Assembly (NCBI GenBank): GCA_002448285.1
Contig: DJWX01000011.1
Span: 185,907 to 249,906, forward strand
Reading direction: 5' to 3'
Length of the DNA: 64,000 nt
From: Candidatus Ruminimicrobiellum ovillum
GTDB lineage: Bacteria > Elusimicrobiota > Endomicrobiia > Endomicrobiales > Endomicrobiaceae
The position numbers and the translations under genes are program-made. The notes beneath the pieces were generated by a model, which was not told the origin of the DNA, did no database searches, and worked only from the letters and a program-made list of their open reading frames with translations. Positions 52,326-64,000 of this stretch are shown piece by piece (within the stretch, counting starts at the first letter, position 1; each line of letters opens with the position of its first letter).

Positions 52326-54142
<1,817 letters not shown>

Positions 54143-54160
54143 TTTTATATTATAGCAAAT

Positions 54161-55180
54161 TTATTTTGCATAAATAACAGTATCCGTAAAACCTAAAGTA
54201 TAATTAGCAAAATAAAATTTATACCCTAAATTTAATTCATTTAAAAATTTCGGTATTTCGTAATAATCTTCGTATTTATGGTATGCCGCTATTGCAAGTT
54301 TCGGTTTATACTTTTTTAATGTATTTACCGCACCTTGCAAGGCTTTCAGTTCACAACCTTCTATATCCATTTTAATAAAATCTGTTTTTTCTATCTTTTT
54401 ACCTTCAACAAAATCATCAATACATATTGTTTTATATTGTTGCAAATTATTTTTGTTTTCCGTTAATGTTGTAATATCGGCACAAGCATGATTTAAATAT
54501 AAAATTTTGTTTGATTTGTTATATACAGGTTGTTCGGTTAAAATAATGTTGTCGGCAAGTTTTTTATTATGAGAAAAATTTTCTTTAAGTATATTCAAAT
54601 TATCATCAAAAAATTCAAATGTAAAAATTTTCCCCTCATTACCGGCAATCGACGAAAATATTAATGAAGTATCCCCCCAACAAGCGCCGGCATCTATAAC
54701 AAAATCTCCATTTTCAACTTTACAATCTTTATAAGAATATTGTTTATGGATTATAAGTTTATCGAGCAAAGCTCTTGCCCCGTAAACTTTTATATCGTAT
54801 CCGAGTTTTGACAAATTATAAAATTTTAATTTTCTTGTAACGGATTGTAATTGTCTGATAGAATTATCTGCCAATAAACTATCAAAAATATCTCGTGAAT
54901 GAATATATTTTTCTTTTTCTTGTTCGGTTACATATACGGGTCCCAAAAGTTTTGAAACTATCATCTTTAAGTATAATTGTTTTTCTGTTTCATCTTCCAA
55001 CAAGTTATAAAAATATTCCAAACTGTTGTAATTATTTTTGAACCACCCGTAATAATCTATACATTTTTCTTTTACAAATTCGTCGGTTATTTTCTTTTGA
55101 AAATTTTGTATATCTTCAAAAGAAAAAACTTGTTGTTTGTTTAGTTCAATAAAAAGTTTATCGGCAAAATTTTTATTCAT
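54161..55180 (-). CDS. FkbM-family SAM-dependent methyltransferase
   Basis: VIDAGACWGDTSLIF...DFIKMDIEGCELKALQGA. Confidence 0.8.
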   Translation of the reverse strand: MNKNFADKLFIELNKQQVFSFEDIQNFQKKITDEFVKEKCIDYYGWFKNNYNSLEYFYNLLEDETEKQLYLKMIVSKLLGPVYVTEQEKEKYIHSRDIFDSLLADNSIRQLQSVTRKLKFYNLSKLGYDIKVYGARALLDKLIIHKQYSYKDCKVENGDFVIDAGACWGDTSLIFSSIAGNEGKIFTFEFFDDNLNILKENFSHNKKLADNIILTEQPVYNKSNKILYLNHACADITTLTENKNNLQQYKTICIDDFVEGKKIEKTDFIKMDIEGCELKALQGAVNTLKKYKPKLAIAAYHKYEDYYEIPKFLNELNLGYKFYFANYTLGFTDTVIYAK

Positions 55181-55182
55181 TG

Positions 55183-56970
55183 TTATATTTTATGATTTAT
55201 AATATTTTCTTCAAATTCTTTTCTGTCCAAGAAAGGAAACATATCTTCAAGTGTGGGTGATACCATTGTTCCGTCGGGAAGTTTTTTTGATGAAAGTTTC
55301 GGTAAGAAAGAATACTCTTTTTCTACCATAACCTCACATAAAACAGGACCATTAAATTTTAAAACTTCTTTTATTTCTTTTTCCATTGTTTTGGGATTTT
55401 TTATTCTTTTTGTTTTTAGTCCGAAGGCTTTCCCTATTTTTGTAAAATCGGGAACACTTACTCCGCTATCTGTACCGGAACCTGTCATTTTACCGTTAAA
55501 AAAGTTTCTCTGAGTTTGTCTTATTGAAGAATATCCGCTGTTATTTATAACAAATATTTTTATCGGTAACTTATTATATTTTATGGTTTCAAGTTCCTGT
55601 ATATTCATCATTATCGAACCGTCACCTTCCAAACAAATAACATTTCGTCCTTTTGAAGATAAACTTGCGCCTATACTTGCAGGTAATGCATAACCCATGG
55701 ATGCATTTCCTCCATTCAAGATAAATCTCTGATTTTTTTTAATTACTGCCGTTTGAAAACCGCATACGCAAGCAGAACCGTTTGCCATAACAAAAATATC
55801 TCTTTCTTTTAAACATTTTGTTAATGTATAAACAAAACGGTAAGGTTCTATTATATTCGGTTTTTGCTTCTGTTCTTTATAATTTTCAAAGCAATATTTG
55901 TTTTTTAAGTTTTTGCAAAAACTTAACCACTTCAAATACTTTGAAGAATTAATATTTTTTGTTTTTGCCAAAAGCTGCGGCATAAAAAATTTTAAGTCGG
56001 TATTTATTGCTAAATTCGGTTTTACAAAAGGCTTTCTTAATTCGTCTTTATCAATATCAACAACTATTTTAAAAGCATTTTTAGCAAAATTTTCCCAATT
56101 GTAACTTACTTGTCTGATATTATTTCTTGTCCCTAAAAATAAAATCGTATCGGCATTTTGTAATGCAAAATTTCCGGCTCTTTGCCCCACAGTACCTATT
56201 CTCCCGATATAATATTTATTTTTTGTTTCCAACAAATCAAAGCCGTTAAATGTTGTAACAACGGGAATTTTTAATTTTTCAATTAACTTATAAAATTCTT
56301 TTTGTGTATCCGACAATCTTATACCGTGACCTGCGACAATAAGAGGTCTTTCGGATTTTTTTATTTTTTCAATTATTTTATCTATATTTATTTTTTCGTT
56401 TTTTATTTTAGGTTCTTTAAATTCTTTTAAAATTTTTTCATCTATCATAGCAGATTGGACATTCATAGGGATATCAAGCCACACAGGTCCGAATCTTCCG
56501 TGAGTCGCTTCGTAAATTGCTTTATCCAAATGGTATTTTATTTCGTCGGGATTGGTAACCATAACGGCATATTTTGTTAACGGTTTAACAACACTTATAA
56601 TATCAACTTCCTGGTCGCCGAGCTGTCTTAATTTTATATTAGGGCAACTTGCCGTCGTTGTTGAATATTTAACTTGCCCGGAAACATATAAAACGGGAAC
56701 AGAGTCTGTCCATTGTCCGAATACTCCGTTCAAACAATTAAGTCCCCCAGGACCTGTTGTAACATTTACAACCGCAAGTTCTCTGTTTACTCTTGCATAC
56801 CCTTCCGCAGAAATCGCACATGCCTGTTCGTGGTGATTACAAACATAATGAATATATTTACCGAAACTGTTATTTAAGTGCATGGCACCGCCGCCGGAAA
56901 CCATAAAAACAGTTTTTACTTTATAAACTTCTTTTAATCGTTTAGCTACATAATCGGACAATTTAATCAT
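55183..56970 (-). CDS. Thiamine-diphosphate enzyme of the acetolactate synthase family (YerE-like candidate)
   Basis: It has the three-domain ALS architecture. The C-terminal ThDP motif is LEGDGSIMMNIQELETI...VINNSGY. Confidence 0.8.
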   Translation of the reverse strand: MIKLSDYVAKRLKEVYKVKTVFMVSGGGAMHLNNSFGKYIHYVCNHHEQACAISAEGYARVNRELAVVNVTTGPGGLNCLNGVFGQWTDSVPVLYVSGQVKYSTTTASCPNIKLRQLGDQEVDIISVVKPLTKYAVMVTNPDEIKYHLDKAIYEATHGRFGPVWLDIPMNVQSAMIDEKILKEFKEPKIKNEKINIDKIIEKIKKSERPLIVAGHGIRLSDTQKEFYKLIEKLKIPVVTTFNGFDLLETKNKYYIGRIGTVGQRAGNFALQNADTILFLGTRNNIRQVSYNWENFAKNAFKIVVDIDKDELRKPFVKPNLAINTDLKFFMPQLLAKTKNINSSKYLKWLSFCKNLKNKYCFENYKEQKQKPNIIEPYRFVYTLTKCLKERDIFVMANGSACVCGFQTAVIKKNQRFILNGGNASMGYALPASIGASLSSKGRNVICLEGDGSIMMNIQELETIKYNKLPIKIFVINNSGYSSIRQTQRNFFNGKMTGSGTDSGVSVPDFTKIGKAFGLKTKRIKNPKTMEKEIKEVLKFNGPVLCEVMVEKEYSFLPKLSSKKLPDGTMVSPTLEDMFPFLDRKEFEENIINHKI

Positions 56971-57613
56971 TTGTTATCTTCTCTAAACAAAAATCAGCTT
57001 TATCTTTCAATGCTTTTTTATCTGCTCCGTATCCCCACAAAGCAACAAGCGATAAAACTCCTGCTTTCTTTGCAGCCTCAATATCGCTTAAACAATCGCC
57101 AACCATTATAGTTTTTTCTTTTGGCAGATTATATTTTGAAACTATCTCTTCTATCATTTGTTGCTTTGTCAATTTTTTATCGTCGTATTTATCTACCATA
57201 TAAACATCGTCGAAAAAATCTATATTTAAACTTTTTACTAATCGCAATGTAGGAATCTTCGGTTTGTTTGTGGCAATAAATATTTTTTTGTTATTTTGTT
57301 TCAAATATAACAGACAATCCCTAATACCGTCATATAATTTCGTTATATCTTTTTCATCATAATCATAAATTTTTCTGTATTCCGAAACTATGTTGTTTAC
57401 AATATTTTCATCCGTTAAATCGGGCTTTACTATTTTTGCTATTTCCGCTAAAGACGGTCCCATAACGGACGGATTTAATCTCTCTTTATCAAAAGAAACA
57501 TTGCATTTGTTAAAAGCTTTTTCTATACAAGATAAAACTTCATCTGCGGTATCTGCCAAAGTTCCGTCAAAATCGAAAATAAAATTGTCGTACTCATTAA
57601 ATCGCTTCAACAT
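56963..57613 (-). CDS. HAD-superfamily hydrolase (phosphoglycolate phosphatase-like)
   Basis: FIFDFDGTLADT (motif I), IATNK (motif II), and MVGDCLSDIEAAKKAG (motifs III/IV). Confidence 0.8.
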   Translation of the reverse strand: MLKRFNEYDNFIFDFDGTLADTADEVLSCIEKAFNKCNVSFDKERLNPSVMGPSLAEIAKIVKPDLTDENIVNNIVSEYRKIYDYDEKDITKLYDGIRDCLLYLKQNNKKIFIATNKPKIPTLRLVKSLNIDFFDDVYMVDKYDDKKLTKQQMIEEIVSKYNLPKEKTIMVGDCLSDIEAAKKAGVLSLVALWGYGADKKALKDKADFCLEKITND

Positions 57614-58421
57614 TTACTCCGGTTTCTTCTATCAACTTTTTATATCTGTCTTCAAGCATAACAATTCTCTTTTCATCTTCTTTATATATCATTTCGTAGA
57701 ATTTTCTTTTATTCTTAAGCCACATCAACTCAAAACCTACAGCTTTTAAAATTCCTTTATCTATGTTTTTATCTTCAAATGCTTTCTGTGCATCGAAAAC
57801 TATTTTTCTTGTTTCAAATTTATATAAAGAATTTTTAGGTAATCTTTTGAAAAACGGCATTGAATGGAAAGACACCCCGCCGCCGATAATAAACTTTTTA
57901 TTATATTTTTGGCACAATGCAGCCATCTTGTTTGCAATTTCAAATATTTCTTCACAATTGATATCTTCTCTGGTTAATCCCATGGAACCGGTCATATCTA
58001 CTCTACCCAAAACTATACCGCTTATATCACCGGAATTTTTCGATTTTAATATATCTTCCAAATTATTAAAACCGGTTATTGTTTCTATGTTCATATAGAA
58101 AGATATGTCTTGCCTTTCTTCTTCCGGAAAAACAAATTTTGTTGCTTGAACATATTTTTTTGCAGCATAAGCGGTTTCTATCATCGGAGCAACTATCGTG
58201 TTCACACCTATAGTTCTTGCATCATACATATCTTTTATAGCTTCACATCCGCCTGTTTTTATTGTTAATTCAAGGCCCGCTTTTGTTACAACTTCTTTTA
58301 ACCTTAAAGCTTCTTCCATTCTTGTGCCTTCAGCCTCAAATTCCGCTTTAACACCGATAACATTGTGTTCTTGCCTTAAATTTTCTAACGTGTGAACCAT
58401 TCTCTTTTCTAAATTATTCAT
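57597..58421 (-). CDS. HpcH/HpaI aldolase / citrate-lyase-beta-like TIM-barrel protein
   Basis: EFEAEG...VAPMIETAYAAKK...NIETITG...VLGRVDM pattern. The family assignment is tentative. Confidence 0.45.
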   Translation of the reverse strand: MNNLEKRMVHTLENLRQEHNVIGVKAEFEAEGTRMEEALRLKEVVTKAGLELTIKTGGCEAIKDMYDARTIGVNTIVAPMIETAYAAKKYVQATKFVFPEEERQDISFYMNIETITGFNNLEDILKSKNSGDISGIVLGRVDMTGSMGLTREDINCEEIFEIANKMAALCQKYNKKFIIGGGVSFHSMPFFKRLPKNSLYKFETRKIVFDAQKAFEDKNIDKGILKAVGFELMWLKNKRKFYEMIYKEDEKRIVMLEDRYKKLIEETGVNVEAI

Positions 58422-58435
58422 TTTTATATCCTATT

Positions 58436-59278
58436 CTATTTTATTTGTTTATAATAATTATATAATTTTTTTAAACCTTGTTTAATGTCGGTAAATTTTA
58501 AATTTTGTATTTCCGATAATAAAACAGAATTATCACCGGTATATTCATTATTCATAATTTTGTTTTTTATAGTTATATTTACTTTATTATTTTCAAAAGC
58601 ATTAACTATTTCGGCTATTTCCAAAAGACTTATACTTTGCGATGGTGTTATGTTTATTATATTGTTTTTAGCATCGTTTTCTATAAAGTAATAAACAATT
58701 TTTTCCATATCTTCAACCCAAAGATAATCGAAAACAACATTTTGATTTATTTCTATATTTTTACCGTCAATAACACTTTTAATTGCATAGGTAGGAAATC
58801 TGGTTTCTTTTTCTCCGTATCCGTAACAAGCGAAAATGTTTAACATTAAAAAATCTCTTCTTTCCTTAATTTTTTCAGCAATCAACATTTTCGATCTACC
58901 ATACAAATCTTCAGGTATAACTTTACCTATTTCTTCTTCTTTAACTTTGTGTAAATTTCTTGATTTATCGTACATTGCACCGGAACCGAACAAAATAACT
59001 CGAGTATCATCGGATTTATATTTTAAAATGTTATCAATCATTGCAAGATTATCTTCAATGGTTGTATTTTTATCTTGAACATCTCTTACACCGCCGACCG
59101 ATGCACAATGAATTATAAAATCGATTTTATTTTCTTCAAAATATTTTTTAACTTCGTTCGAATTTGTTAAATTAAGTTCAAAGCTGCGAGGAGTTAAAAG
59201 ATTATATTTATATTTTAAATATTCTTTTAAATTCTTGCCTATGAATCCGCCTGAACCGGTTAATAATATTGTTTTCAT
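58436..59278 (-). CDS. NAD(P)-dependent sugar epimerase/reductase (extended SDR, about the length of RfbS/YerF)
   Basis: ILLTGSGGFIGKNL Rossmann motif and catalytic YGRSK. Confidence 0.75.
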   Translation of the reverse strand: MKTILLTGSGGFIGKNLKEYLKYKYNLLTPRSFELNLTNSNEVKKYFEENKIDFIIHCASVGGVRDVQDKNTTIEDNLAMIDNILKYKSDDTRVILFGSGAMYDKSRNLHKVKEEEIGKVIPEDLYGRSKMLIAEKIKERRDFLMLNIFACYGYGEKETRFPTYAIKSVIDGKNIEINQNVVFDYLWVEDMEKIVYYFIENDAKNNIINITPSQSISLLEIAEIVNAFENNKVNITIKNKIMNNEYTGDNSVLLSEIQNLKFTDIKQGLKKLYNYYKQIK

Positions 59279-60255
59279 TTTTTCCTTTTAATTTTAAAAA
59301 ATAAAATTTTAACTTTCCTATAATCATTTTCATATTTTATTGTTCTTATATCTAAAATAAATCTAATAAAATTTTTTAAATAATAGAAACAACAACACAC
59401 AGTGCTTATAAAATAATCATTAATAAATTTTAAACTCCAAACCTTATCAATTCTTAAATAGTCAAAATAAAGCCAATCTTTGGTTCGTGGCATCGACATA
59501 GTATTCCATGGCTTTTTCTTATAAGTATAATGGATAATAGCCGGAAATTTAGCTGCTTGAATAATTTTTTTACGATTAGGATTATATCTTCTTTCGGGAG
59601 TTGAGCGATAAAAACTATCTTGGACATTCCATTTATAATCAAGTTCTTTTATTTTCCCACTACAAACAGCATTTATCACATCCTGATCACCGATTTTAAT
59701 TTTATCTCCATCTTTAATTGTAAATTCCATCAGTTTGTTATATAGTTTATCTTGTCTCCAGCGTTTAAGATTTATTAAAAGAACTCCGGCATTAATATAA
59801 AAACTACTCTTATATATAAATTCGGGATTATATTGTCTTAAATAATAATATCCTATATCTTCTACCCCGGCTAAATAATAATCTTTTATATCTGTTTCAA
59901 AAAGTTCTGCAAGAGATTGTTTTATGATAACGTCACAGTCAAGATATATTATTTTTGAAATATCACGGCATAACTCAGATATTTTATAACGAAAATATGT
60001 TGTATTTGAAATATGTTTTCCACCAGCAGGAAAAGAAATAAAATCTTTTATATCAACATCTAAAAATTCAACTCCAAAGTCTTTGAATTTTTTTAATGAA
60101 TTAATATATTGTTTTGAATTATTAGAAACTTTATCACATAGAATATAAAAATGTAATTCATCATCTTTATTTGCTGTTTGTAATATGGAAACCATTGCTG
60201 TCGCCATATATTTCAAATAATTTTCATCGGTAGCAAAACAAATATTTATTTGCAT
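59275..60255 (-). CDS. Family 8 glycosyltransferase (LPS alpha-1,3-Gal/Glc transferase-like)
   Basis: INICFATDENYLKYMATAMVSIL, YLDCDVII (DxD), NAGVLLINLKRWR, DQDVINAV. Confidence 0.8.
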   Translation of the reverse strand: MQINICFATDENYLKYMATAMVSILQTANKDDELHFYILCDKVSNNSKQYINSLKKFKDFGVEFLDVDIKDFISFPAGGKHISNTTYFRYKISELCRDISKIIYLDCDVIIKQSLAELFETDIKDYYLAGVEDIGYYYLRQYNPEFIYKSSFYINAGVLLINLKRWRQDKLYNKLMEFTIKDGDKIKIGDQDVINAVCSGKIKELDYKWNVQDSFYRSTPERRYNPNRKKIIQAAKFPAIIHYTYKKKPWNTMSMPRTKDWLYFDYLRIDKVWSLKFINDYFISTVCCCFYYLKNFIRFILDIRTIKYENDYRKVKILFFKIKRKK

Positions 60256-60317
60256 AAGTATATCCTAAATTTTTCTGCTTACATACAAGACTATGCATAT
60301 ATAATAAATACATTTAC

Positions 60318-61325
60318 TTACTTTATTCTCCAAAAATTATATTTTTTCTTACCATTGAACATACTTATTATCTTAAGAGGCAAATATAGAAAAATAAAAC
60401 TTACTAAAACAAACAGAATAATTTCAAGTCTCATTATAAAACTTGAACAAAAGCAAAAATAACTCATAATATTCTGTAATAAAAAGCCATTCTCCTTTAT
60501 AATTCCACGTGCAATTTCACGAAAAACAACGTTTACTATAGGATCGGTATGTTTATGTTTTACACCCTGAGATTTATCTGAATCTTCTGTCAACCAACTC
60601 TTAACAATATTAAGTCTCAATTTATCATCTTTAATTAATAACATACAATTAAAAATCGCAGCAAAAAAGGATTTTACAGGGTATAATTCGCTTGGAATAT
60701 TTCCTCTTGTATAAGAGGAATCAACTCCAGCATCCCAACCTCCATAAATTGCAACAGGATTTCCTTTTAGATAATAGAACGATTTATTTTTATCATTTAT
60801 TACCTTGCAAAAAAGTGGTGCATGCGGGCAATAACTACTTATTGAATCATATACATTTCTCATAACTTCACTATTTATAATTGATGTTTTATAAATACAA
60901 CCAGATAAGAAAACGCATTGTTTTATTCTATCTTCGAATGTTGGATTGACAAATATTTGAGCAATGACTATACAATCATGATCTTCAATCATGGCATCTT
61001 CAACTTCTTTCCAATTTTGCCAATCATAGTAATCATCATCACCTAATATCCAAAAATATTTTTTATTTGCAAATTCAATGGCTTTGGCAATATTAGCATT
61101 TCCACCCACATTATATTTATTTTTAATAACTGAAACATTTTTGTATCTACTACTAAATTCATTACAAATATCTTGTGTGCTATCCGTAGAGTTGTTATTT
61201 AATATTGTTATTTTACAATCTTTTACAGGACAACTATTAGATAAAATTTCCTTAAGTGTTTTTTTTAAACTTTCAGCCCTATTATATGTAATAATTATCA
61301 ACTCTAAATCATCTTTTATACTCAT
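60318..61325 (-). CDS. Family 2 glycosyltransferase with a C-terminal membrane anchor
   Basis: LELIIITYNRAESLKKTL...ILNNNSTDST...LGDDDY. The C-terminal segment is hydrophobic. Confidence 0.7.
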   Translation of the reverse strand: MSIKDDLELIIITYNRAESLKKTLKEILSNSCPVKDCKITILNNNSTDSTQDICNEFSSRYKNVSVIKNKYNVGGNANIAKAIEFANKKYFWILGDDDYYDWQNWKEVEDAMIEDHDCIVIAQIFVNPTFEDRIKQCVFLSGCIYKTSIINSEVMRNVYDSISSYCPHAPLFCKVINDKNKSFYYLKGNPVAIYGGWDAGVDSSYTRGNIPSELYPVKSFFAAIFNCMLLIKDDKLRLNIVKSWLTEDSDKSQGVKHKHTDPIVNVVFREIARGIIKENGFLLQNIMSYFCFCSSFIMRLEIILFVLVSFIFLYLPLKIISMFNGKKKYNFWRIK

Positions 61326-61373
61326 TTTAACTCTCTAAAAACACTTTTTTTATATACTTTTAAATATTTTTTA

Positions 61374-62744
61374 TTAATTTCCTTCTCTTACAAACTTGTG
61401 TATCAATTCCGAAATTTTATCCATTTCTTTTTTACCGAGTTCGGGAAATACACCTACCCAAAAAGTGTTGTTCATTATGTATTCCGTATTGGGTAACTTT
61501 TTGTATTCTTTTTCTGTTAATTTGTTTGACATCAACAAAGGAGATTTGCCTATCTTTAAAGGAACATTATTTTCCGTCATCATCGGTTGTCTCAAAATAT
61601 TCCCTGCAAAAAGATGCCTTGTTCCTACTCCGTTTTGTTCCAAATATTCAACAAGTTGTTGTTTCGTAAATTTATTATTTTGTTTTACGGTTAGCAAAAG
61701 CCCAAACCAAGACGGTTCTGTTCCTTTTTCAATTTTCGGAAATATAAAATAATTTTTCAAATCTTTTAATTTTTGCATTAAATATTTTGCATTTTGTGTT
61801 CTTTTCTGTAAGAATTTAGGAAATTTTTTTAATTGACTTAAACCTACCGCTGCCTGAAAATCCGTTATTTTTAAGTTGTAACCTATATGAGAATATGTAT
61901 ATTTATGGTCGTACCCGAAAGGAAGTTTCCCGCATTGCATAGAAAATCTTTTTCCGCAACTGTTATCTTTCCCAGGTTTACACCAACAATCTCTTCCCCA
62001 ATCTCTGAAAGACATTATTATTCTATACAACAGAGAATCGTTAGTTACAACAGCTCCGCCTTCACCCATAGTTATATGATGTGCAGGATAAAAGCTGAAA
62101 GTTCCTATATGACCTACAGTCCCGACTTTTTGTTTTTTATACAATGCTCCCAAAGCATCGCAACTGTCCTCTATAAGCCACAAATTATATTTTTTACATA
62201 ATTTTAAAATTTTATCTAAATTAAAAGGATTACCCAACGTGTGAGCAACAAATATTGCTTTTGTTTTTTTTGTTATTGCTTCTTCGATTTTATTTTCATC
62301 AATATTACAAGTTTCCAATTTGCAATCTACAAACACAGGAACAAGTCCCAACTGAATTATCGGATTTATTGTAGTAGGAAAACCGGAAGCGACTGTTATA
62401 ACTTCATCCCCTTTTTTTATTTGTTTTTTCCCAAGTTTATAAGATGTTAATGCCGATAGTGCCAAAAGATTTGCACTTGAACCGGAATTTGTTGTAAGTG
62501 CATACTTTACACCTAAAAACTTTGCAAAACTTTTTTCGAATTCATCGTTAAATCTGCCGGTGGTAAGCCACATATCGAGAGAAGCATCTATTAAATTGCA
62601 TAAGTCTTTCTCATCCAAAACTTTACCGGAAACGGGAATATATTTTTTCAAATCTCTTTTTGGTTTATTAAATTTAAAATAACAACCTGCTGCTTTTTTT
62701 ACCGAATTTCTTAATGTATCGTTTTTATTCATATTTTTTTCCAA
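61374..62744 (-). CDS. rfbH: CDP-6-deoxy-L-threo-D-glycero-4-hexulose-3-dehydrase (E1, RfbH/DdhC)
   Basis: MWLTTGRFNDEFEKSFAKFLGV, TTNSGSSANLLALSALTS, FYPAHHITMGEGG, and the Fe-S motif DWGRDCWCKPGKDNSCGKRF. These match Salmonella RfbH closely, as I recall its sequence. Confidence 0.88.
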   Translation of the reverse strand: MEKNMNKNDTLRNSVKKAAGCYFKFNKPKRDLKKYIPVSGKVLDEKDLCNLIDASLDMWLTTGRFNDEFEKSFAKFLGVKYALTTNSGSSANLLALSALTSYKLGKKQIKKGDEVITVASGFPTTINPIIQLGLVPVFVDCKLETCNIDENKIEEAITKKTKAIFVAHTLGNPFNLDKILKLCKKYNLWLIEDSCDALGALYKKQKVGTVGHIGTFSFYPAHHITMGEGGAVVTNDSLLYRIIMSFRDWGRDCWCKPGKDNSCGKRFSMQCGKLPFGYDHKYTYSHIGYNLKITDFQAAVGLSQLKKFPKFLQKRTQNAKYLMQKLKDLKNYFIFPKIEKGTEPSWFGLLLTVKQNNKFTKQQLVEYLEQNGVGTRHLFAGNILRQPMMTENNVPLKIGKSPLLMSNKLTEKEYKKLPNTEYIMNNTFWVGVFPELGKKEMDKISELIHKFVREGN

Positions 62745-62750
62745 AAATTT

Positions 62751-63827
62751 TCAACATTTTTTTGTTTTGCAAAATTCTTTTATTTGTTCAACACAAACTT
62801 TTTTCATGTCTTTTTTTTGTTGATATGATTTTGTCCAATCTACAATTTTGTTTAGAGTAGTATTTATGTTCCATCTCGGAACCCATTTCAACTCTTTTTT
62901 TGCTTTTGATATATCCAATTTTAAATAATGTGCTTCGTGAGGTTGTTTGGTTTTGGTTACAGTATATTTAGCACCGGGAAAAATTTTGCATAAAATTCTA
63001 ACTATCTGTTCCACGTTTTTTGTATCTTTCTTTTCGGGTCCGAAATTCCAAGCGGTTGCAAACTGTTTTTTACCATTTAATAAATTCGCCCCTAACATCA
63101 AATAACCGCTAATAGGCTCTAAAACATGCTGCCATGGTCTTATTGCCTGCGGACTTCTTATTTCCAGTTTTTTAGCGAAAAGCACGGCTTTAATAAAGTC
63201 AGGTATTAATCTGTCTTTTGCAAAATCTCCGCCACCGATAACATTTCCTGCTCTTGCCGAAGCTATTAGTGTTTTATGTGTTTTGCCGTAATCTTTTATA
63301 TTGAAAAAAGAATCTCTGTAGGAAGAAATTATTATTTCACAAGCTGCTTTCGATGCACTGTAAGGATCGTAACCGCCTAAAGAATCTGTTTCTTTAAATG
63401 CTTTTCCTGTTTCGTTGTTAAGATATACTTTATCGGTTGTAATCGCAACTACGGCTTTAATGAATTTATTTTCTTTTACTGCTTCTAAAACATTTGCTGT
63501 TCCTATGACATTTGTGTTAAAAGTATTTAGAGTTTCTTCGTAAGATAATCTTACCAACGGTTGTGCTGCCAAATGAAATATTATTTCCGGTTTATATTTT
63601 TTTATTACGGATTTTAATTTTTTAAAATCATTTATGTCTGCTCTGATATCAACACATTTCGGTTTTGTTAATTCAAATAATGAAGGTTTGGTAGGAATAT
63701 CAATTGAATAACCTATGACTTTTGCACCTAACATTTCCAACCACAAACAAAGCCAAGTGCCTTTAAAACCGGTATGACCTGTAACTAAAACTTTTTTATT
63801 TTTATATATATTATTAAACATCGTCAT
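62751..63827 (-). CDS. rfbG: CDP-glucose 4,6-dehydratase
   Basis: KKVLVTGHTGFKGTWLCLWLEMLGAKVIGYS and YSASKAACE (YxxxK). Confidence 0.88.
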   Translation of the reverse strand: MTMFNNIYKNKKVLVTGHTGFKGTWLCLWLEMLGAKVIGYSIDIPTKPSLFELTKPKCVDIRADINDFKKLKSVIKKYKPEIIFHLAAQPLVRLSYEETLNTFNTNVIGTANVLEAVKENKFIKAVVAITTDKVYLNNETGKAFKETDSLGGYDPYSASKAACEIIISSYRDSFFNIKDYGKTHKTLIASARAGNVIGGGDFAKDRLIPDFIKAVLFAKKLEIRSPQAIRPWQHVLEPISGYLMLGANLLNGKKQFATAWNFGPEKKDTKNVEQIVRILCKIFPGAKYTVTKTKQPHEAHYLKLDISKAKKELKWVPRWNINTTLNKIVDWTKSYQQKKDMKKVCVEQIKEFCKTKKC

Positions 63828-64000
63828 TTTTTGTTAAGCCAAACCGACCAAGGAGCTTTTCCTTTTTGCCACATATCGGTTAATTCTTCTTTTTCTCTTA
63901 ACGTATCCATAGGTTTCCAAAAACCAAAATGCTTAAAAGCATTTAATTGATTATCTTTTGCTAAATTTTCAAGAGGAGCTCTTTCAAAAATTATATTATC
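63824..64000 (-). CDS. rfbF: Glucose-1-phosphate cytidylyltransferase, C-terminal 58 codons (runs off the window)
   Basis: My manual translation is ...PLENLAKDNQLNAFKHFGFWKPMDTLREKEELTDMWQKGKAPWSVWLNKK*. The stop forms an ATGA overlap with rfbG. Confidence 0.8.
   Translation of the reverse strand, partial: DNIIFERAPLENLAKDNQLNAFKHFGFWKPMDTLREKEELTDMWQKGKAPWSVWLNKK

What the first reader, a model, noticed from the sequence alone, without database searches (positions are those of the whole stretch)
54161..64000. CDP-3,6-dideoxyhexose genes combine with an ALS/YerE-like ThDP enzyme, an aldolase-like protein, a HAD phosphatase and an FkbM methyltransferase: a candidate branched-chain (yersiniose-like) sugar pathway
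**Core dideoxyhexose genes**
- rfbF (Glc-1-P cytidylyltransferase, partial), rfbG (CDP-glucose 4,6-dehydratase) and rfbH (the PMP/Fe-S E1 3-dehydrase, with AHH and CWC...C motifs) are unambiguous.
- Together they define CDP-3,6-dideoxy-4-keto-hexose formation.

**Downstream genes on the same strand**
- Two glycosyltransferases.
- A 280-aa SDR, the size of CDP-paratose synthase or YerF-type reductases.
- A 595-aa three-domain ThDP enzyme.

**Link to yersiniose**
- In Yersinia pseudotuberculosis the ThDP flavoenzyme YerE adds a two-carbon branch from pyruvate to exactly this intermediate, and YerF then reduces it to give yersiniose A.

**What is extra here**
- An HpcH/HpaI-like aldolase, a HAD hydrolase and an FkbM methyltransferase are not part of the known yersiniose route.
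- They suggest a modified or new branched, methylated sugar.

**Prediction**
- The E3 reductase (ddhD/ascD) is not in the window.
- In known clusters it lies just upstream of the cytidylyltransferase, so I predict it lies beyond 64000.
Basis: partly seen in the sequence, partly recalled or inferred. Interest (0 to 1): 0.62.

Follow-up and report, generated by a model that had tools for sequence, protein, structure and literature searches.

The report
Long-branched dideoxy-sugar operon, rumen Elusimicrobia
This operon in an uncultured rumen bacterium very probably builds a rare cell-surface sugar with a long carbon side branch; the type of pathway was published in 2022 and the gene cassette is common in gut bacteria, so only its phosphatase step, its missing reductase partner and the exact sugar are new.

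Summary
On the minus strand they run ddhA(rfbF)-ddhB-ddhC(E1)-GT2-GT8-SDR-HpcH-like aldolase-HAD phosphatase-ThDP enzyme-FkbM methyltransferase.

**What holds up**
- The ThDP enzyme is YerE-like. It is sister to JanthE and lies apart from true acetolactate synthases. The genome has its own ilvBN-ilvC-ilvD elsewhere.

**What does not hold up**
- The E3 prediction fails. A divergent GT2 lies upstream of ddhA, and the complete genome has no DdhD/AscD-type reductase.
- This does not kill the pathway. The related Fe-S 3-dehydrase SpnQ works with general ferredoxin or flavodoxin reductases.
- The "extra" aldolase and methyltransferase are not new to the field. Steitz et al. 2022 showed that an aldolase makes a long 2-keto acid, and a YerE-like enzyme then attaches it (erwiniose, caryophyllose, gastriose).

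**Wider picture**
- The core ddhABC-SDR-[donor module]-ThDP recurs in 80 species-level genomes of gut Elusimicrobia, Melainabacteria, Opitutales and others.
- The donor modules are interchangeable.
- 45 of 56 HpcH-bearing cassettes carry an adjacent phosphate-removing enzyme, drawn from three unrelated families.

**Inference**
- HpcH condenses pyruvate with a phosphorylated aldose.
- HAD frees the resulting 3-deoxy-2-ulosonic acid.
- The ThDP enzyme grafts it onto C4 of the CDP-keto sugar.

**Verdict:** new variant of a known kind, of moderate interest.

The parts
63824..64000 (-). ddhA/rfbF, glucose-1-phosphate cytidylyltransferase. This is the 3' end only; the full 262-aa gene runs to 64612, beyond the window edge.
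   Evidence: TIGR02623, E 1.9e-19. Full ORF read from the contig. It overlaps ddhB by 4 nt. A promoter-like TTAACA-17-TATAAT lies at 64675-64647.
62751..63827 (-). ddhB/rfbG, CDP-glucose 4,6-dehydratase
   Evidence: TIGR02622, 492 bits against a cut-off of 278.
61374..62744 (-). ddhC/rfbH, the E1 enzyme: a PMP- and [2Fe-2S]-dependent CDP-4-keto-6-deoxyglucose 3-dehydrase
   Evidence: NF011936, 680 bits. 502 bits to Yersinia E1 structure 3bcx. The catalytic His motif and the four Fe-S cysteines are conserved.
60318..61325 (-). GT2 glycosyltransferase. It is part of a variable insert between ddhC and the SDR.
   Evidence: PF00535, 85 bits. In 80 related loci the SDR usually follows ddhC directly, and close relatives L006 and L007 carry other genes here. 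GC is 0.26.
59275..60255 (-). GT8 glycosyltransferase (LPS alpha-1,3-galactosyltransferase-like). It is part of the same variable insert.
   Evidence: PF01501, 176 bits. NF011718, 100 bits, below its cut-off.
58436..59278 (-). Extended SDR, the predicted YerF-type reductase of the branch ketone. An alternative role as a C4 ketoreductase is not excluded.
   Evidence: PF01370, 97 bits. TGSGGFIG and YGRSK motifs are visible in the sequence. It sits immediately after ddhC in most related cassettes. Its nearest solved relatives are NDP-sugar 4-reductases.
57597..58421 (-). HpcH/HpaI-like class II (metal-dependent) pyruvate aldolase. It belongs to a distinct, compact subfamily and is the predicted maker of the 2-keto-3-deoxy acid donor.
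   Evidence: PF03328, 43 bits. AF2 model with pLDDT 94.7. Best fold matches are HpaI, YfaU and HpcH at TM 0.55-0.63. E113 and D142 align with the HpaI metal ligands. It is 63-82% identical across phyla. The family has 288 clusters at 50% identity with E<=1e-30.
56963..57613 (-). HAD-IA phosphatase, predicted to dephosphorylate the aldolase product
   Evidence: PF13419, 115 bits. No NCBIfam equivalog is reached. DFDGT and GDCLSD motifs are present. It lies between HpcH and ThDP in 22 other loci, and a non-orthologous HAD-IIA takes the same position in 13 loci.
55183..56970 (-). YerE-like ThDP-dependent carboligase, the branching enzyme
   Evidence: PF02776, PF00205 and PF02775 all match. Every acetolactate synthase equivalog scores below its cut-off. 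Scores are JanthE 8rph 378 bits, PpYerE 248 bits and E. coli acetolactate synthase 214 bits. In the tree it is sister to JanthE with 100 SH-aLRT support, with acetolactate synthases as outgroup.
54161..55180 (-). FkbM-family SAM methyltransferase with a roughly 150-aa N-terminal extension of unknown family. It is the predicted O-methylase of the sugar or its side chain.
   Evidence: TIGR01444, 75 bits, and PF05050, 60 bits. It is conserved next to ThDP only in the nearest relatives L006 and L007 (83-87% identity). Distant FkbM genes sit next to ThDP in L018, L023 and L047.

Best explanation
This is a surface-glycan operon that makes a CDP-activated 3,6-dideoxyhexose carrying a long, hydroxylated alkyl branch at C4. 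The product is of the caryophyllose/erwiniose type rather than the yersiniose type.

**Proposed steps**
1. DdhA, DdhB and DdhC convert glucose-1-phosphate into CDP-4-keto-3,6-dideoxy-D-glucose. The enzyme identities are shown by sequence; the chemistry is known from Yersinia.
2. DdhC is a genuine Fe-S E1 enzyme, but no E3 partner exists. Its two electrons are therefore inferred to come from the cell's general ferredoxin or flavodoxin systems, as for SpnQ.
3. In parallel, the HpcH-like class II aldolase condenses pyruvate with a phosphorylated aldose. Erythrose-4-P and glyceraldehyde-3-P are the leading guesses. The product is an omega-phospho-3-deoxy-2-ulosonic acid (inferred).
4. The HAD phosphatase removes the phosphate (inferred). 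The logic is the same as KdsA/KdsC for KDO or NANS/NANP for sialic acid.
5. The YerE-like ThDP enzyme decarboxylates this 2-keto acid and adds the acyl anion to the C4 ketone of the CDP-sugar. This is inferred from homology and from the published unifying scheme.
6. The SDR reduces the new side-chain ketone.
7. FkbM adds an O-methyl group.
8. One of the neighbouring glycosyltransferases passes the sugar to the growing glycan.

The order of dephosphorylation and branching is not known.
For: **Core genes**
- Gene identities and catalytic motifs are confirmed.
- The operon is tight.

**ThDP enzyme**
- It groups with YerE-like enzymes and away from acetolactate synthases.
- The genome has a separate ilvB-ilvN-ilvC-ilvD set.

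**Published precedent**
- Aldolase plus YerE-like enzyme plus reductase, next to the genes that make the keto sugar, yields long-branched sugars. MMAR_2331 is an aldolase/citrate-lyase-family gene required for caryophyllose (PMC9306805; PMC5706390).

**Synteny**
- ddhA-ddhB-ddhC-SDR-[module]-ThDP recurs in 80 species-level genomes.
- The slot before ThDP holds either an HpcH aldolase or a NeuB-like PEP synthase. Both make 3-deoxy-2-ulosonic acids.

**Phosphorylated intermediate**
- 45 of 56 HpcH cassettes have an adjacent phosphate-removing enzyme from three unrelated families: HAD-IA, HAD-IIA and the AroB-like sugar phosphate phospholyase TIGR04425.
- HpcH stays 63-82% identical whichever partner it has.
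- On the HpcH tree the partner type changes at least 14 times.

**Aldolase fold**
- The HpcH fold and metal ligands match class II pyruvate aldolases.

**Expression**
- Near-identical fragments of ddhB through ThDP occur in four gut metatranscriptome runs from two studies.
Against: - No enzyme of this clade has been assayed. JanthE, the nearest solved relative, also accepts pyruvate, so a C2 branch is not excluded.
- The ThDP tree does not follow the donor-module type. The ThDP enzyme may be promiscuous, or the modules may not define the donor.
- The aldolase's acceptor aldehyde is unknown, and the phosphorylated intermediate is inferred only from gene neighbourhood.
- 11 HpcH cassettes have no adjacent phosphatase.
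- The position of HpaI's catalytic Arg70 appears to hold an invariant Lys55, so the chemistry may differ from HpaI.
- No E3 exists in the genome, so step 2 is an assumption.
- I could not obtain YpYerE, ErwE, MMAR_2332 or MMAR_2331, so they could not be placed in the trees.
- The metatranscriptome contigs have low depth, carry no strand information and may include DNA.
Confidence: 0.6

Rival explanations
1. Plain yersiniose-type pathway. The ThDP enzyme uses pyruvate to add a C2 acetyl branch and the SDR reduces it. HpcH and HAD serve another purpose in the glycan locus, such as making a separate ulosonic-acid-like residue or substituent.
For: - YerE/YerF is the founding precedent.
- JanthE accepts pyruvate.
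- Minimal cassettes ddhABC-SDR-ThDP with no donor module exist (L038, L041, L053, L055, L063, L065).
- Their ThDP enzymes sit inside the same clade.
Against: - HpcH with or without a phosphatase lies strictly between the SDR and ThDP in 56 loci across several phyla.
- No CMP- or NDP-activating enzyme for a free ulosonic acid is present in the operon.
- ErwE, which has an adjacent aldolase, rejects pyruvate.
Confidence: 0.15
2. Branch first, extend later. The ThDP enzyme installs a short acyl or phosphorylated acyl branch on the CDP-sugar. The HpcH aldolase, the HAD phosphatase, or both then act on the nucleotide-sugar-bound side chain.
For: - Steitz et al. raised this order as a formal possibility.
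- Gene order says nothing about reaction order.
- The ThDP tree does not track module type.
- An earlier AI note proposed late action for the AroB-like enzyme (e1-1424551).
Against: - For ErwE the alternative order was ruled out experimentally.
- Class II pyruvate aldolases use pyruvate or 2-keto acids as the nucleophile, not methyl ketones on nucleotide sugars. This rests on established knowledge of the HpcH/HpaI family.
Confidence: 0.12
3. Unbranched 3,6-dideoxyhexose. The SDR is a paratose/abequose-synthase-type C4 reductase, and the HpcH-HAD-ThDP-FkbM genes make an unrelated small molecule or non-sugar substituent.
For: - At 280 aa the SDR is the size of CDP-paratose synthase.
- Its solved relatives are NDP-sugar 4-reductases.
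Against: - The SDR and ThDP co-occur with ddhABC as one cassette in nearly every locus, including the minimal ones.
- The ThDP enzyme belongs to the ketone-accepting YerE-like clade.
Confidence: 0.06
4. The ThDP enzyme is an ordinary acetolactate/acetohydroxyacid synthase that happens to lie next to sugar genes.
For: The best NCBIfam matches are acetolactate synthase large-subunit models.
Against: - Every acetolactate synthase model scores far below its cut-off, for example 351 against 538 bits.
- No small subunit lies next to it.
- The genome has a true ilvB-ilvN-ilvC-ilvD locus with only 29% identity.
- The tree places it with JanthE and PpYerE at 100 SH-aLRT.
Confidence: 0.01

Closest known systems
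Caryophyllose module of the Mycobacterium marinum lipooligosaccharide locus (MMAR_2331 aldolase/citrate-lyase family, MMAR_2332 ThDP carboligase, MMAR_2333 glycosyltransferase), with the related Rhodopseudomonas palustris CGA009 cluster
   Same: - Both combine CDP-3,6-dideoxy-4-keto-hexose genes, an aldolase/citrate-lyase-family (HpcH-type) aldolase, a YerE-like ThDP enzyme and a reductase.
- The R. palustris cluster also has a SAM methyltransferase (PMC9306805).
- The product is a C4 long-branched 3,6-dideoxyhexose (PMC5706390).
   Different: - The published scheme describes no HAD phosphatase.
- The window's side chain is therefore predicted to come from a phosphorylated aldose and to keep a terminal OH, whereas the caryophyllose branch ends in CH3.
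- Orthology of the aldolases and ThDP enzymes could not be tested because the sequences were not obtainable.
- The host is a rumen Elusimicrobia bacterium with no E3.
Erwiniose cluster of Pectobacterium atrosepticum SCRI1043 (ErwE, ErwF, ErwI, ErwJ)
   Same: - An aldolase makes a 4-hydroxy-2-keto acid.
- A YerE-like ThDP enzyme adds it to the 4-keto sugar, and a reductase finishes the branch.
[quoted passage not shown]
   Different: - ErwI is a BphI/DmpG-type aldolase paired with an acetaldehyde dehydrogenase.
- Here the aldolase is HpcH-like and is paired with a phosphatase.
Yersiniose A pathway of Yersinia pseudotuberculosis O:VI (DdhABCD, YerE, YerF)
   Same: - Both have the DdhA/B/C core; DdhC scores 502 bits to the Yersinia E1 structure.
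- Both have a ThDP branching enzyme and a reductase.
   Different: - No DdhD (E3) is present anywhere in the genome.
- An aldolase and a phosphatase are present, which points to a longer donor than pyruvate.
- An FkbM methyltransferase is also present.
JanthE of Janthinobacterium sp. HH01 (PDB 8RPH)
   Same: - It is the closest solved relative of the ThDP enzyme: 378 bits, aligned over residues 2-591, and sister in the tree.
- It accepts long and hydroxylated 2-keto acids and ketone acceptors.
   Different: - JanthE has an unusual CDG ThDP motif, whereas the window enzyme has the canonical GDG.
- JanthE's physiological substrates are unknown.
KDO, KDN and sialic acid logic (KdsA+KdsC; KDN-9-P synthase + phosphatase; NANS+NANP)
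   Same: A synthase makes an omega-phospho-3-deoxy-2-ulosonic acid and a dedicated HAD phosphatase frees it. This is established knowledge. NeuB-like synthases occupy the same slot in 11 related cassettes.
   Different: - Here the condensing enzyme is a pyruvate-aldolase-fold protein, not a PEP synthase.
- The acid is predicted to be decarboxylated onto another sugar rather than CMP-activated.

Membership tests
CDP-3,6-dideoxyhexose core pathway (Ddh/Asc: DdhA, DdhB, DdhC/E1, DdhD/E3) | Cytidylyltransferase, CDP-glucose 4,6-dehydratase and E1 3-dehydrase encoded together | tested here: met
   TIGR02623, TIGR02622 (492 bits) and NF011936 (680 bits) match contiguous genes.
CDP-3,6-dideoxyhexose core pathway (Ddh/Asc: DdhA, DdhB, DdhC/E1, DdhD/E3) | E1 has His in place of the aminotransferase Lys, and has the [2Fe-2S] cysteine motif | tested here: met
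   Alignment to 3bcx keeps SFYPAHHITMGEGG and C...CxC-x7-C.
CDP-3,6-dideoxyhexose core pathway (Ddh/Asc: DdhA, DdhB, DdhC/E1, DdhD/E3) | A dedicated E3 reductase (Fer2 + FNR-like DdhD/AscD) | tested here: not met
   - A divergent GT2 lies upstream of ddhA.
- The only two FNR-like proteins in the 100%-complete genome are PyrK and a sulfide/DHOD-like protein.
- None is found in the 80 related loci.
- 15 other cassette genomes have 0-2 small FNR-like hits.
YerE-like ThDP carboligases (sugar-branching enzymes) | Three-domain ThDP fold with a GDG-X(24-27)-NN motif and a catalytic Glu | tested here: met
   PF02776, PF00205 and PF02775 match. HHEQ and GDGS...NNSGY are visible in the sequence.
YerE-like ThDP carboligases (sugar-branching enzymes) | Groups with characterised YerE-like enzymes rather than with acetohydroxyacid synthases | tested here: met
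   The tree gives (window clade, JanthE) at 100 SH-aLRT, then PpYerE, with E. coli ALS I and the genome's own IlvB as outgroup. YpYerE, ErwE, MMAR_2332 and MyGE could not be included.
YerE-like ThDP carboligases (sugar-branching enzymes) | Encoded with the genes that make the 4-keto-3,6-dideoxy acceptor, and with a reductase | tested here: met
   This holds in the window and in most of the 80 related loci.
YerE-like ThDP carboligases (sugar-branching enzymes) | Catalyses addition of a decarboxylated 2-keto acid to a ketone acceptor | not testable with these tools
   This needs an enzyme assay.
Long acyl-branched sugar clusters (unifying scheme, Steitz et al. 2022) | An aldolase next to the ThDP enzyme that can supply a functionalised 2-keto acid | tested here: met
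   - PF03328 scores 43 bits, above its cut-off.
- The fold matches HpaI and YfaU.
- The metal ligands are conserved.
- The gene is adjacent to ThDP in 56 loci.
Long acyl-branched sugar clusters (unifying scheme, Steitz et al. 2022) | Orthology of the aldolase and ThDP enzyme to MMAR_2331/MMAR_2332 or ErwI/ErwE | not testable with these tools
   The reference sequences could not be fetched. NCBI gives a distant family member (35% identical to the window protein) the same name, 'aldolase/citrate lyase family protein', but that is only a name.
Class II (metal-dependent) pyruvate aldolases HpcH/HpaI/YfaU | Glu and Asp metal ligands on the barrel | tested here: met
   E113 and D142 are invariant in 35 homologues and align with the HpaI ligands.
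Class II (metal-dependent) pyruvate aldolases HpcH/HpaI/YfaU | Catalytic Arg (HpaI R70) | tested here: inconclusive
   By spacing in the profile alignment this position falls at the invariant K55 in TIKTGG. This was not verified on coordinates. Identity to the solved aldolases is only 12-16%.
Biosynthetic acetolactate synthase (IlvB/AHAS) | Reaches the equivalog score and is paired with a small regulatory subunit in an ilv context | tested here: not met
   The best acetolactate synthase model scores 351 bits against a cut-off of 538. The true ilvB-ilvN-ilvC-ilvD locus lies at C26:108-114 kb.
HAD-superfamily phosphatases | DxDxT nucleophile motif, Ser/Thr motif II and GDxxxD motif IV | tested here: met
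   FDFDGTLADT, ATNK and GDCLSD are present. PF13419 scores 115 bits. No equivalog is reached, so the substrate is unknown.

The most novel reading that the evidence does not exclude
**A phosphate handle as a switch point**
- The compact HpcH-like family would be a pyruvate aldolase specialised for phosphorylated aldoses.
- In this operon a HAD phosphatase hydrolyses the phosphate, giving an omega-hydroxy polyol branch. The product would be a hydroxylated analogue of caryophyllose that has not been described.
- In sister cassettes an AroB-like phospholyase plus a FabG-like reductase eliminates the phosphate instead, giving the omega-deoxy (caryophyllose-type) end.
- NeuB-like PEP synthases would form a third entry route.

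**E3-independent dehydrase**
- The E1 3-dehydrase of these gut anaerobes would run without any E3, on ferredoxin or flavodoxin.

**Consequence**
- Gut Elusimicrobia, Melainabacteria and Opitutales would carry a combinatorial toolkit for higher-carbon branched surface sugars that nobody has yet seen chemically.
Probability: 0.3. Interest if true: 0.6.

Novelty: new variant of a known kind. Interest (0 to 1): 0.4.

Why it matters
Acyl-branched 3,6-dideoxy sugars such as yersiniose, erwiniose and caryophyllose are rare, strongly antigenic parts of bacterial envelopes. Their chemistry is hard to determine directly.

This window and its 80 relatives show that the cassette is widespread in uncultured gut and rumen bacteria. 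The part that makes the side-chain donor is swapped like a module.

If the phosphatase reading is right, several things follow:
- It predicts an undescribed C11-C12 sugar.
- It gives biocatalysis a new pair of enzymes for functionalised chiral tertiary alcohols: an aldolase for phosphorylated aldoses, and a YerE-like enzyme for polyhydroxy 2-keto acids.
- It extends the known E3-independent mode of C3 deoxygenation from an actinomycete antibiotic pathway to CDP-sugar pathways of anaerobes.

The general scheme was published in 2022, so the advance is incremental rather than conceptual.

Tried and rejected
1. **E3 just beyond the window.** I read the remaining 1.8 kb of the contig and found a divergent GT2, not a reductase.
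2. **E3 elsewhere in the genome.** PF00175 and PF00970 scans found two proteins, identified as PyrK and a sulfide/DHOD-like protein.
3. **E3 in related cassettes.** There were no FNR-like or Fer2+FNR-motif ORFs in the 80 loci. Candidate ORFs of about 305 aa between ddhA and ddhB turned out to be unrelated proteins or SDRs.
4. **ThDP enzyme as acetolactate synthase, or as phosphonopyruvate/sulfopyruvate decarboxylase.** Rejected on its three-domain 595-aa architecture, the model scores and the tree.
5. **HpcH-like protein as PEP mutase, citrate lyase beta subunit or pyruvate kinase.** Fold search ranks class II pyruvate aldolases first and pyruvate kinase barrels close behind, with no PEP mutase among the best 50 matches. 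In the sequence-profile search malyl-CoA lyase scores only 12.6 bits, E 0.53.
6. **Direct comparison with YpYerE, ErwE, MMAR_2331 and MMAR_2332.** The paper's supplement is not held. The one genome-contig scan returned only close relatives. Cluster look-ups gave no mycobacterial member.
7. **Literature link between the M. marinum LOS locus and a dehydroquinate-synthase-like gene.** Nothing was found.
8. **Using the ThDP tree to read donor specificity from module type.** The labels are clustered but swap repeatedly, so specificity cannot be inferred.

Full report
**Observation**

The window comes from contig C2 of a 1.83-Mb, roughly 32% GC genome that is rated 100% complete. The nearest public records are rumen Elusimicrobia/Endomicrobiaceae MAGs such as 'Candidatus Ruminimicrobiellum bubulum'.

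From 64612 down to 54161 the minus strand carries ten tightly packed genes:
- ddhA/rfbF. Only its last 58 codons lie in the window; the full gene is 262 aa.
- ddhB, 62751-63827.
- ddhC/rfbH, 61374-62744.
- A GT2, 60318-61325.
- A GT8, 59275-60255.
- An extended SDR, 58436-59278.
- An HpcH/HpaI-like protein, 57597-58421.
- A HAD-IA hydrolase, 56963-57613.
- A three-domain ThDP enzyme, 55183-56970.
- An FkbM methyltransferase, 54161-55180.

Family assignments are strong. DdhB scores 492 bits on the CDP-glucose 4,6-dehydratase equivalog, and DdhC scores 680 bits on the RfbH equivalog. DdhC scores 502 bits to the Yersinia E1 crystal structure. It keeps the histidine that replaces the aminotransferase lysine, and all four cysteines of the unusual [2Fe-2S] motif. 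The HAD protein has all its catalytic motifs, and the SDR has GxxGxxG and YxxxK.

Gene junctions are overlaps of 4-17 nt or gaps of 2-62 nt. The best promoter-like site lies in the 87-bp divergent spacer upstream of ddhA, and no terminator-like site separates the genes. Short, near-identical contigs from four gut metatranscriptome runs of two studies cover ddhB through the ThDP gene at low depth. That is weak evidence that the operon is expressed in vivo.

**The E3 prediction fails**

- The contig continues for 1.8 kb. After ddhA it holds only an 87-bp spacer and a divergently transcribed GT2.
- Whole-genome scans with the two FNR-type Pfam domains found two proteins.
  - One sits in the pyrimidine operon and is the dihydroorotate dehydrogenase electron-transfer subunit.
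  - The other is a sulfide/dihydroorotate-dehydrogenase-like subunit next to a glutamate-synthase-type partner.
  - Neither has the N-terminal plant-type ferredoxin domain of E3.
- None of the 80 related loci, each with up to 10 kb of flank on either side where the contig allows, encodes an FNR-like protein.
- Fifteen other cassette-bearing genomes have zero to two FNR-domain hits each, in open frames of 255-316 aa, the size range of this genome's PyrK-like and sulfide/DHOD-like frames (267 and 346 aa); I did not check where these hits lie relative to the cassettes.

I think that criterion is too strict. The related Fe-S 3-dehydrase SpnQ has no dedicated partner and works with ferredoxin/ferredoxin reductase or flavodoxin/flavodoxin reductase pairs (PMC8987622). 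An intact Fe-S E1 without E3 appears to be the normal state of this cassette in gut anaerobes.

**The ThDP enzyme is YerE-like**
- Against solved structures it scores 378 bits with JanthE (8RPH, a YerE-like enzyme), 248 bits with the Pseudomonas protegens YerE homologue (5AHK), and 214 bits or less with acetolactate synthases.
- Every NCBIfam acetolactate synthase model is far below its cut-off.
- The genome has its own ilvB-ilvN-ilvC-ilvD locus on another contig, only 29% identical.
- A maximum-likelihood tree of 86 sequences places the window enzyme and its 80 relatives as sister to JanthE (100 SH-aLRT). PpYerE comes next, and E. coli ALS I plus the genome's own IlvB form the outgroup.
- The reference set is small. 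I could not obtain YpYerE, ErwE or MMAR_2332.

**What the 'extra' genes are**

Steitz et al. 2022 (PMC9306805) showed otherwise.
- Long-branched sugars arise when an aldolase first builds a functionalised 2-keto acid. A YerE-like enzyme then adds it to CDP-4-keto-3,6-dideoxyglucose, and a reductase finishes the branch.
- They showed this for erwiniose, caryophyllose and gastriose.
- In Mycobacterium marinum the aldolase/citrate-lyase-family gene MMAR_2331 is required for caryophyllose (PMC5706390).
- The Rhodopseudomonas palustris cluster also contains a SAM methyltransferase.

The window's HpcH-like protein fits this role.
- It passes the Pfam HpcH_HpaI threshold.
- Its AlphaFold model (pLDDT 94.7) matches the class II pyruvate aldolases HpaI, YfaU and HpcH best (TM 0.55-0.63). 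Identity is only 12-16%.
- Its invariant E113 and D142 align with the HpaI metal ligands.
- The position of HpaI's catalytic arginine seems to hold an invariant lysine. I could not verify this on coordinates.
- The family is compact: 288 clusters at 50% identity with E<=1e-30 among 1.84 billion representatives.

**Comparative genomics**

A scan of species-representative genomes with the ThDP enzyme returned 80 loci at 57-93% identity. They come from gut and rumen Elusimicrobia, Gastranaerophilales/Melainabacteria, Opitutales and Alphaproteobacteria, plus a Campylobacter and a Bacteroidaceae MAG.

Mapping the window's proteins onto them shows one core, ddhA-ddhB-ddhC-SDR-[variable module]-ThDP. 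The variable module takes these forms:

| Module before ThDP | Loci |
|---|---|
| HpcH + HAD-IA (the window's type) | 22 |
| HpcH + a non-orthologous HAD-IIA phosphatase | 13 |
| HpcH + both HADs | 1 |
| HpcH + FabG-like SDR + AroB-related 'sugar phosphate phospholyase' (TIGR04425, 382 bits) | 9 |
| HpcH alone | 11 |
| NeuB-like PEP-dependent synthase, sometimes with HAD-IA, FkbM or an FGGY kinase | 11 |
| Nothing (some are truncated contigs; six are true minimal cassettes) | 12 |

Two conclusions follow.
1. The slot before the ThDP gene is filled by enzymes whose known chemistry makes 3-deoxy-2-ulosonic acids, either pyruvate aldolases or PEP synthases. That is what a donor-supplying module should look like.
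2. 45 of 56 HpcH-bearing cassettes carry an adjacent phosphate-removing enzyme from three unrelated families. HpcH itself stays 63-82% identical whatever its partner. On the HpcH tree the partner type changes at least 14 times.

The simplest reading is that HpcH always makes the same kind of phosphorylated product, and that product is then hydrolysed or eliminated. This mirrors the synthase-plus-HAD logic of KDO, KDN and sialic acid biosynthesis, which is established knowledge.

**Mechanism proposed, and how sure each step is**

- Shown by sequence and known chemistry: DdhA, DdhB and DdhC make CDP-4-keto-3,6-dideoxyglucose.
- Inferred: the reductant is a general ferredoxin or flavodoxin system.
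- Inferred from neighbourhood and fold:
  - HpcH condenses pyruvate with a phosphorylated aldose. The AroB-like alternative hints at a DAHP-like C7 acid from erythrose-4-P, and glyceraldehyde-3-P is the other obvious candidate.
  - HAD removes the phosphate.
- Inferred from homology and the published scheme:
  - The ThDP enzyme decarboxylates the acid and adds it to C4.
  - The SDR reduces the new ketone.
- Weakly inferred:
  - FkbM O-methylates the product. It is conserved at this position only in the two nearest relatives.
  - The GT2, the GT8 or the divergent upstream GT2 transfers the sugar.

Caryophyllose is 3,6-dideoxy-4-C-(D-altro-1,3,4,5-tetrahydroxyhexyl)-D-xylo-hexose. If the aldose is erythrose-4-P, the window's product would be its omega-hydroxylated analogue. 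The phospholyase-plus-SDR variants would then give the omega-deoxy end seen in caryophyllose. This is a hypothesis, not a result.

**Caveats**
- No member of this clade has been assayed.
- JanthE also takes pyruvate, and minimal cassettes without any donor module sit inside the same ThDP clade.
- The ThDP tree does not follow module type.
- A C2 branch, or a branch-then-extend order, therefore remains possible.
- Orthology to the genetically validated mycobacterial genes could not be tested.

**Distribution and novelty**
- Orthologues of the ThDP gene occur in 16 of 41 related genomes. Within the genus they occur in 7 of 14 genomes. Such a patchy pattern is typical of variable surface-glycan loci.
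- In the window, the GT2-GT8 pair is inserted between ddhC and the SDR. Close relatives carry different genes there.
- Earlier notes of this scan list 52 similar findings in at least 50 genomes. One on another Endomicrobiaceae genome reached the same reading. These are leads, not independent support.

The pathway type is known, and the cassette is common though chemically unexplored. The phosphatase step, the absence of E3 and the modular donor slot are the new elements. I rate it a new variant of a known kind, with interest 0.4.

Noticed in passing
window 59275-61325: The GT2 and GT8 genes sit between ddhC and the SDR. In most related cassettes those two genes are adjacent. GC drops to 0.26 here, and the nearest relatives L006 and L007 carry different genes in this slot. 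It looks like a hypervariable insert of the glycan locus.
   Followed up: partly
window 53468-54160: The sugar operon runs into the HD-tgt-yajC-HD-secD-secF operon on the same strand. The gap after FkbM is only 18 nt and has no terminator-like site. The same FkbM-HD-tgt junction is kept in L006 and L007.
   Followed up: partly
The contig ends about 100 nt later, so more of the glycan locus may lie on another contig. C11:34-49 kb holds several GT2 and GT8 genes and SDR paralogues.
   Followed up: partly
L022:7714-9970 and L021:5087-6900: One Gastranaerophilales locus has two full-length tandem HpcH-like paralogues plus a shorter third HpcH-like open frame before the ThDP gene. Another has a second, divergent ThDP enzyme (39% identity) that groups with PpYerE rather than with the main clade.
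   Followed up: no
G021:C58:64441-66225 and G039:C8:135223-137022: Two related genomes have the ThDP orthologue interrupted by a single in-frame stop (TAA and TGA). These may be pseudogenes, phase-off alleles or assembly errors.
   Followed up: no
L046:7566-8876 and L061: NeuB-type cassettes in Elusimicrobium carry an FGGY-family sugar kinase next to the NeuB-like synthase. This is another hint that phosphorylated sugars feed the donor module.
   Followed up: no
L026:8692-10005: A polysaccharide pyruvyl transferase (PF04230) is inserted between HAD and ThDP in one HpcH+HAD-IA cassette.
   Followed up: no
window 57597-58421 (residues 176-184): The HpcH-like family has a nearly invariant IGGGVS loop at the end of beta-strand 7, followed by a helix. 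It resembles the standard phosphate-binding motif of TIM barrels. This would fit a phosphorylated substrate, but I did not check it on coordinates.
   Followed up: no
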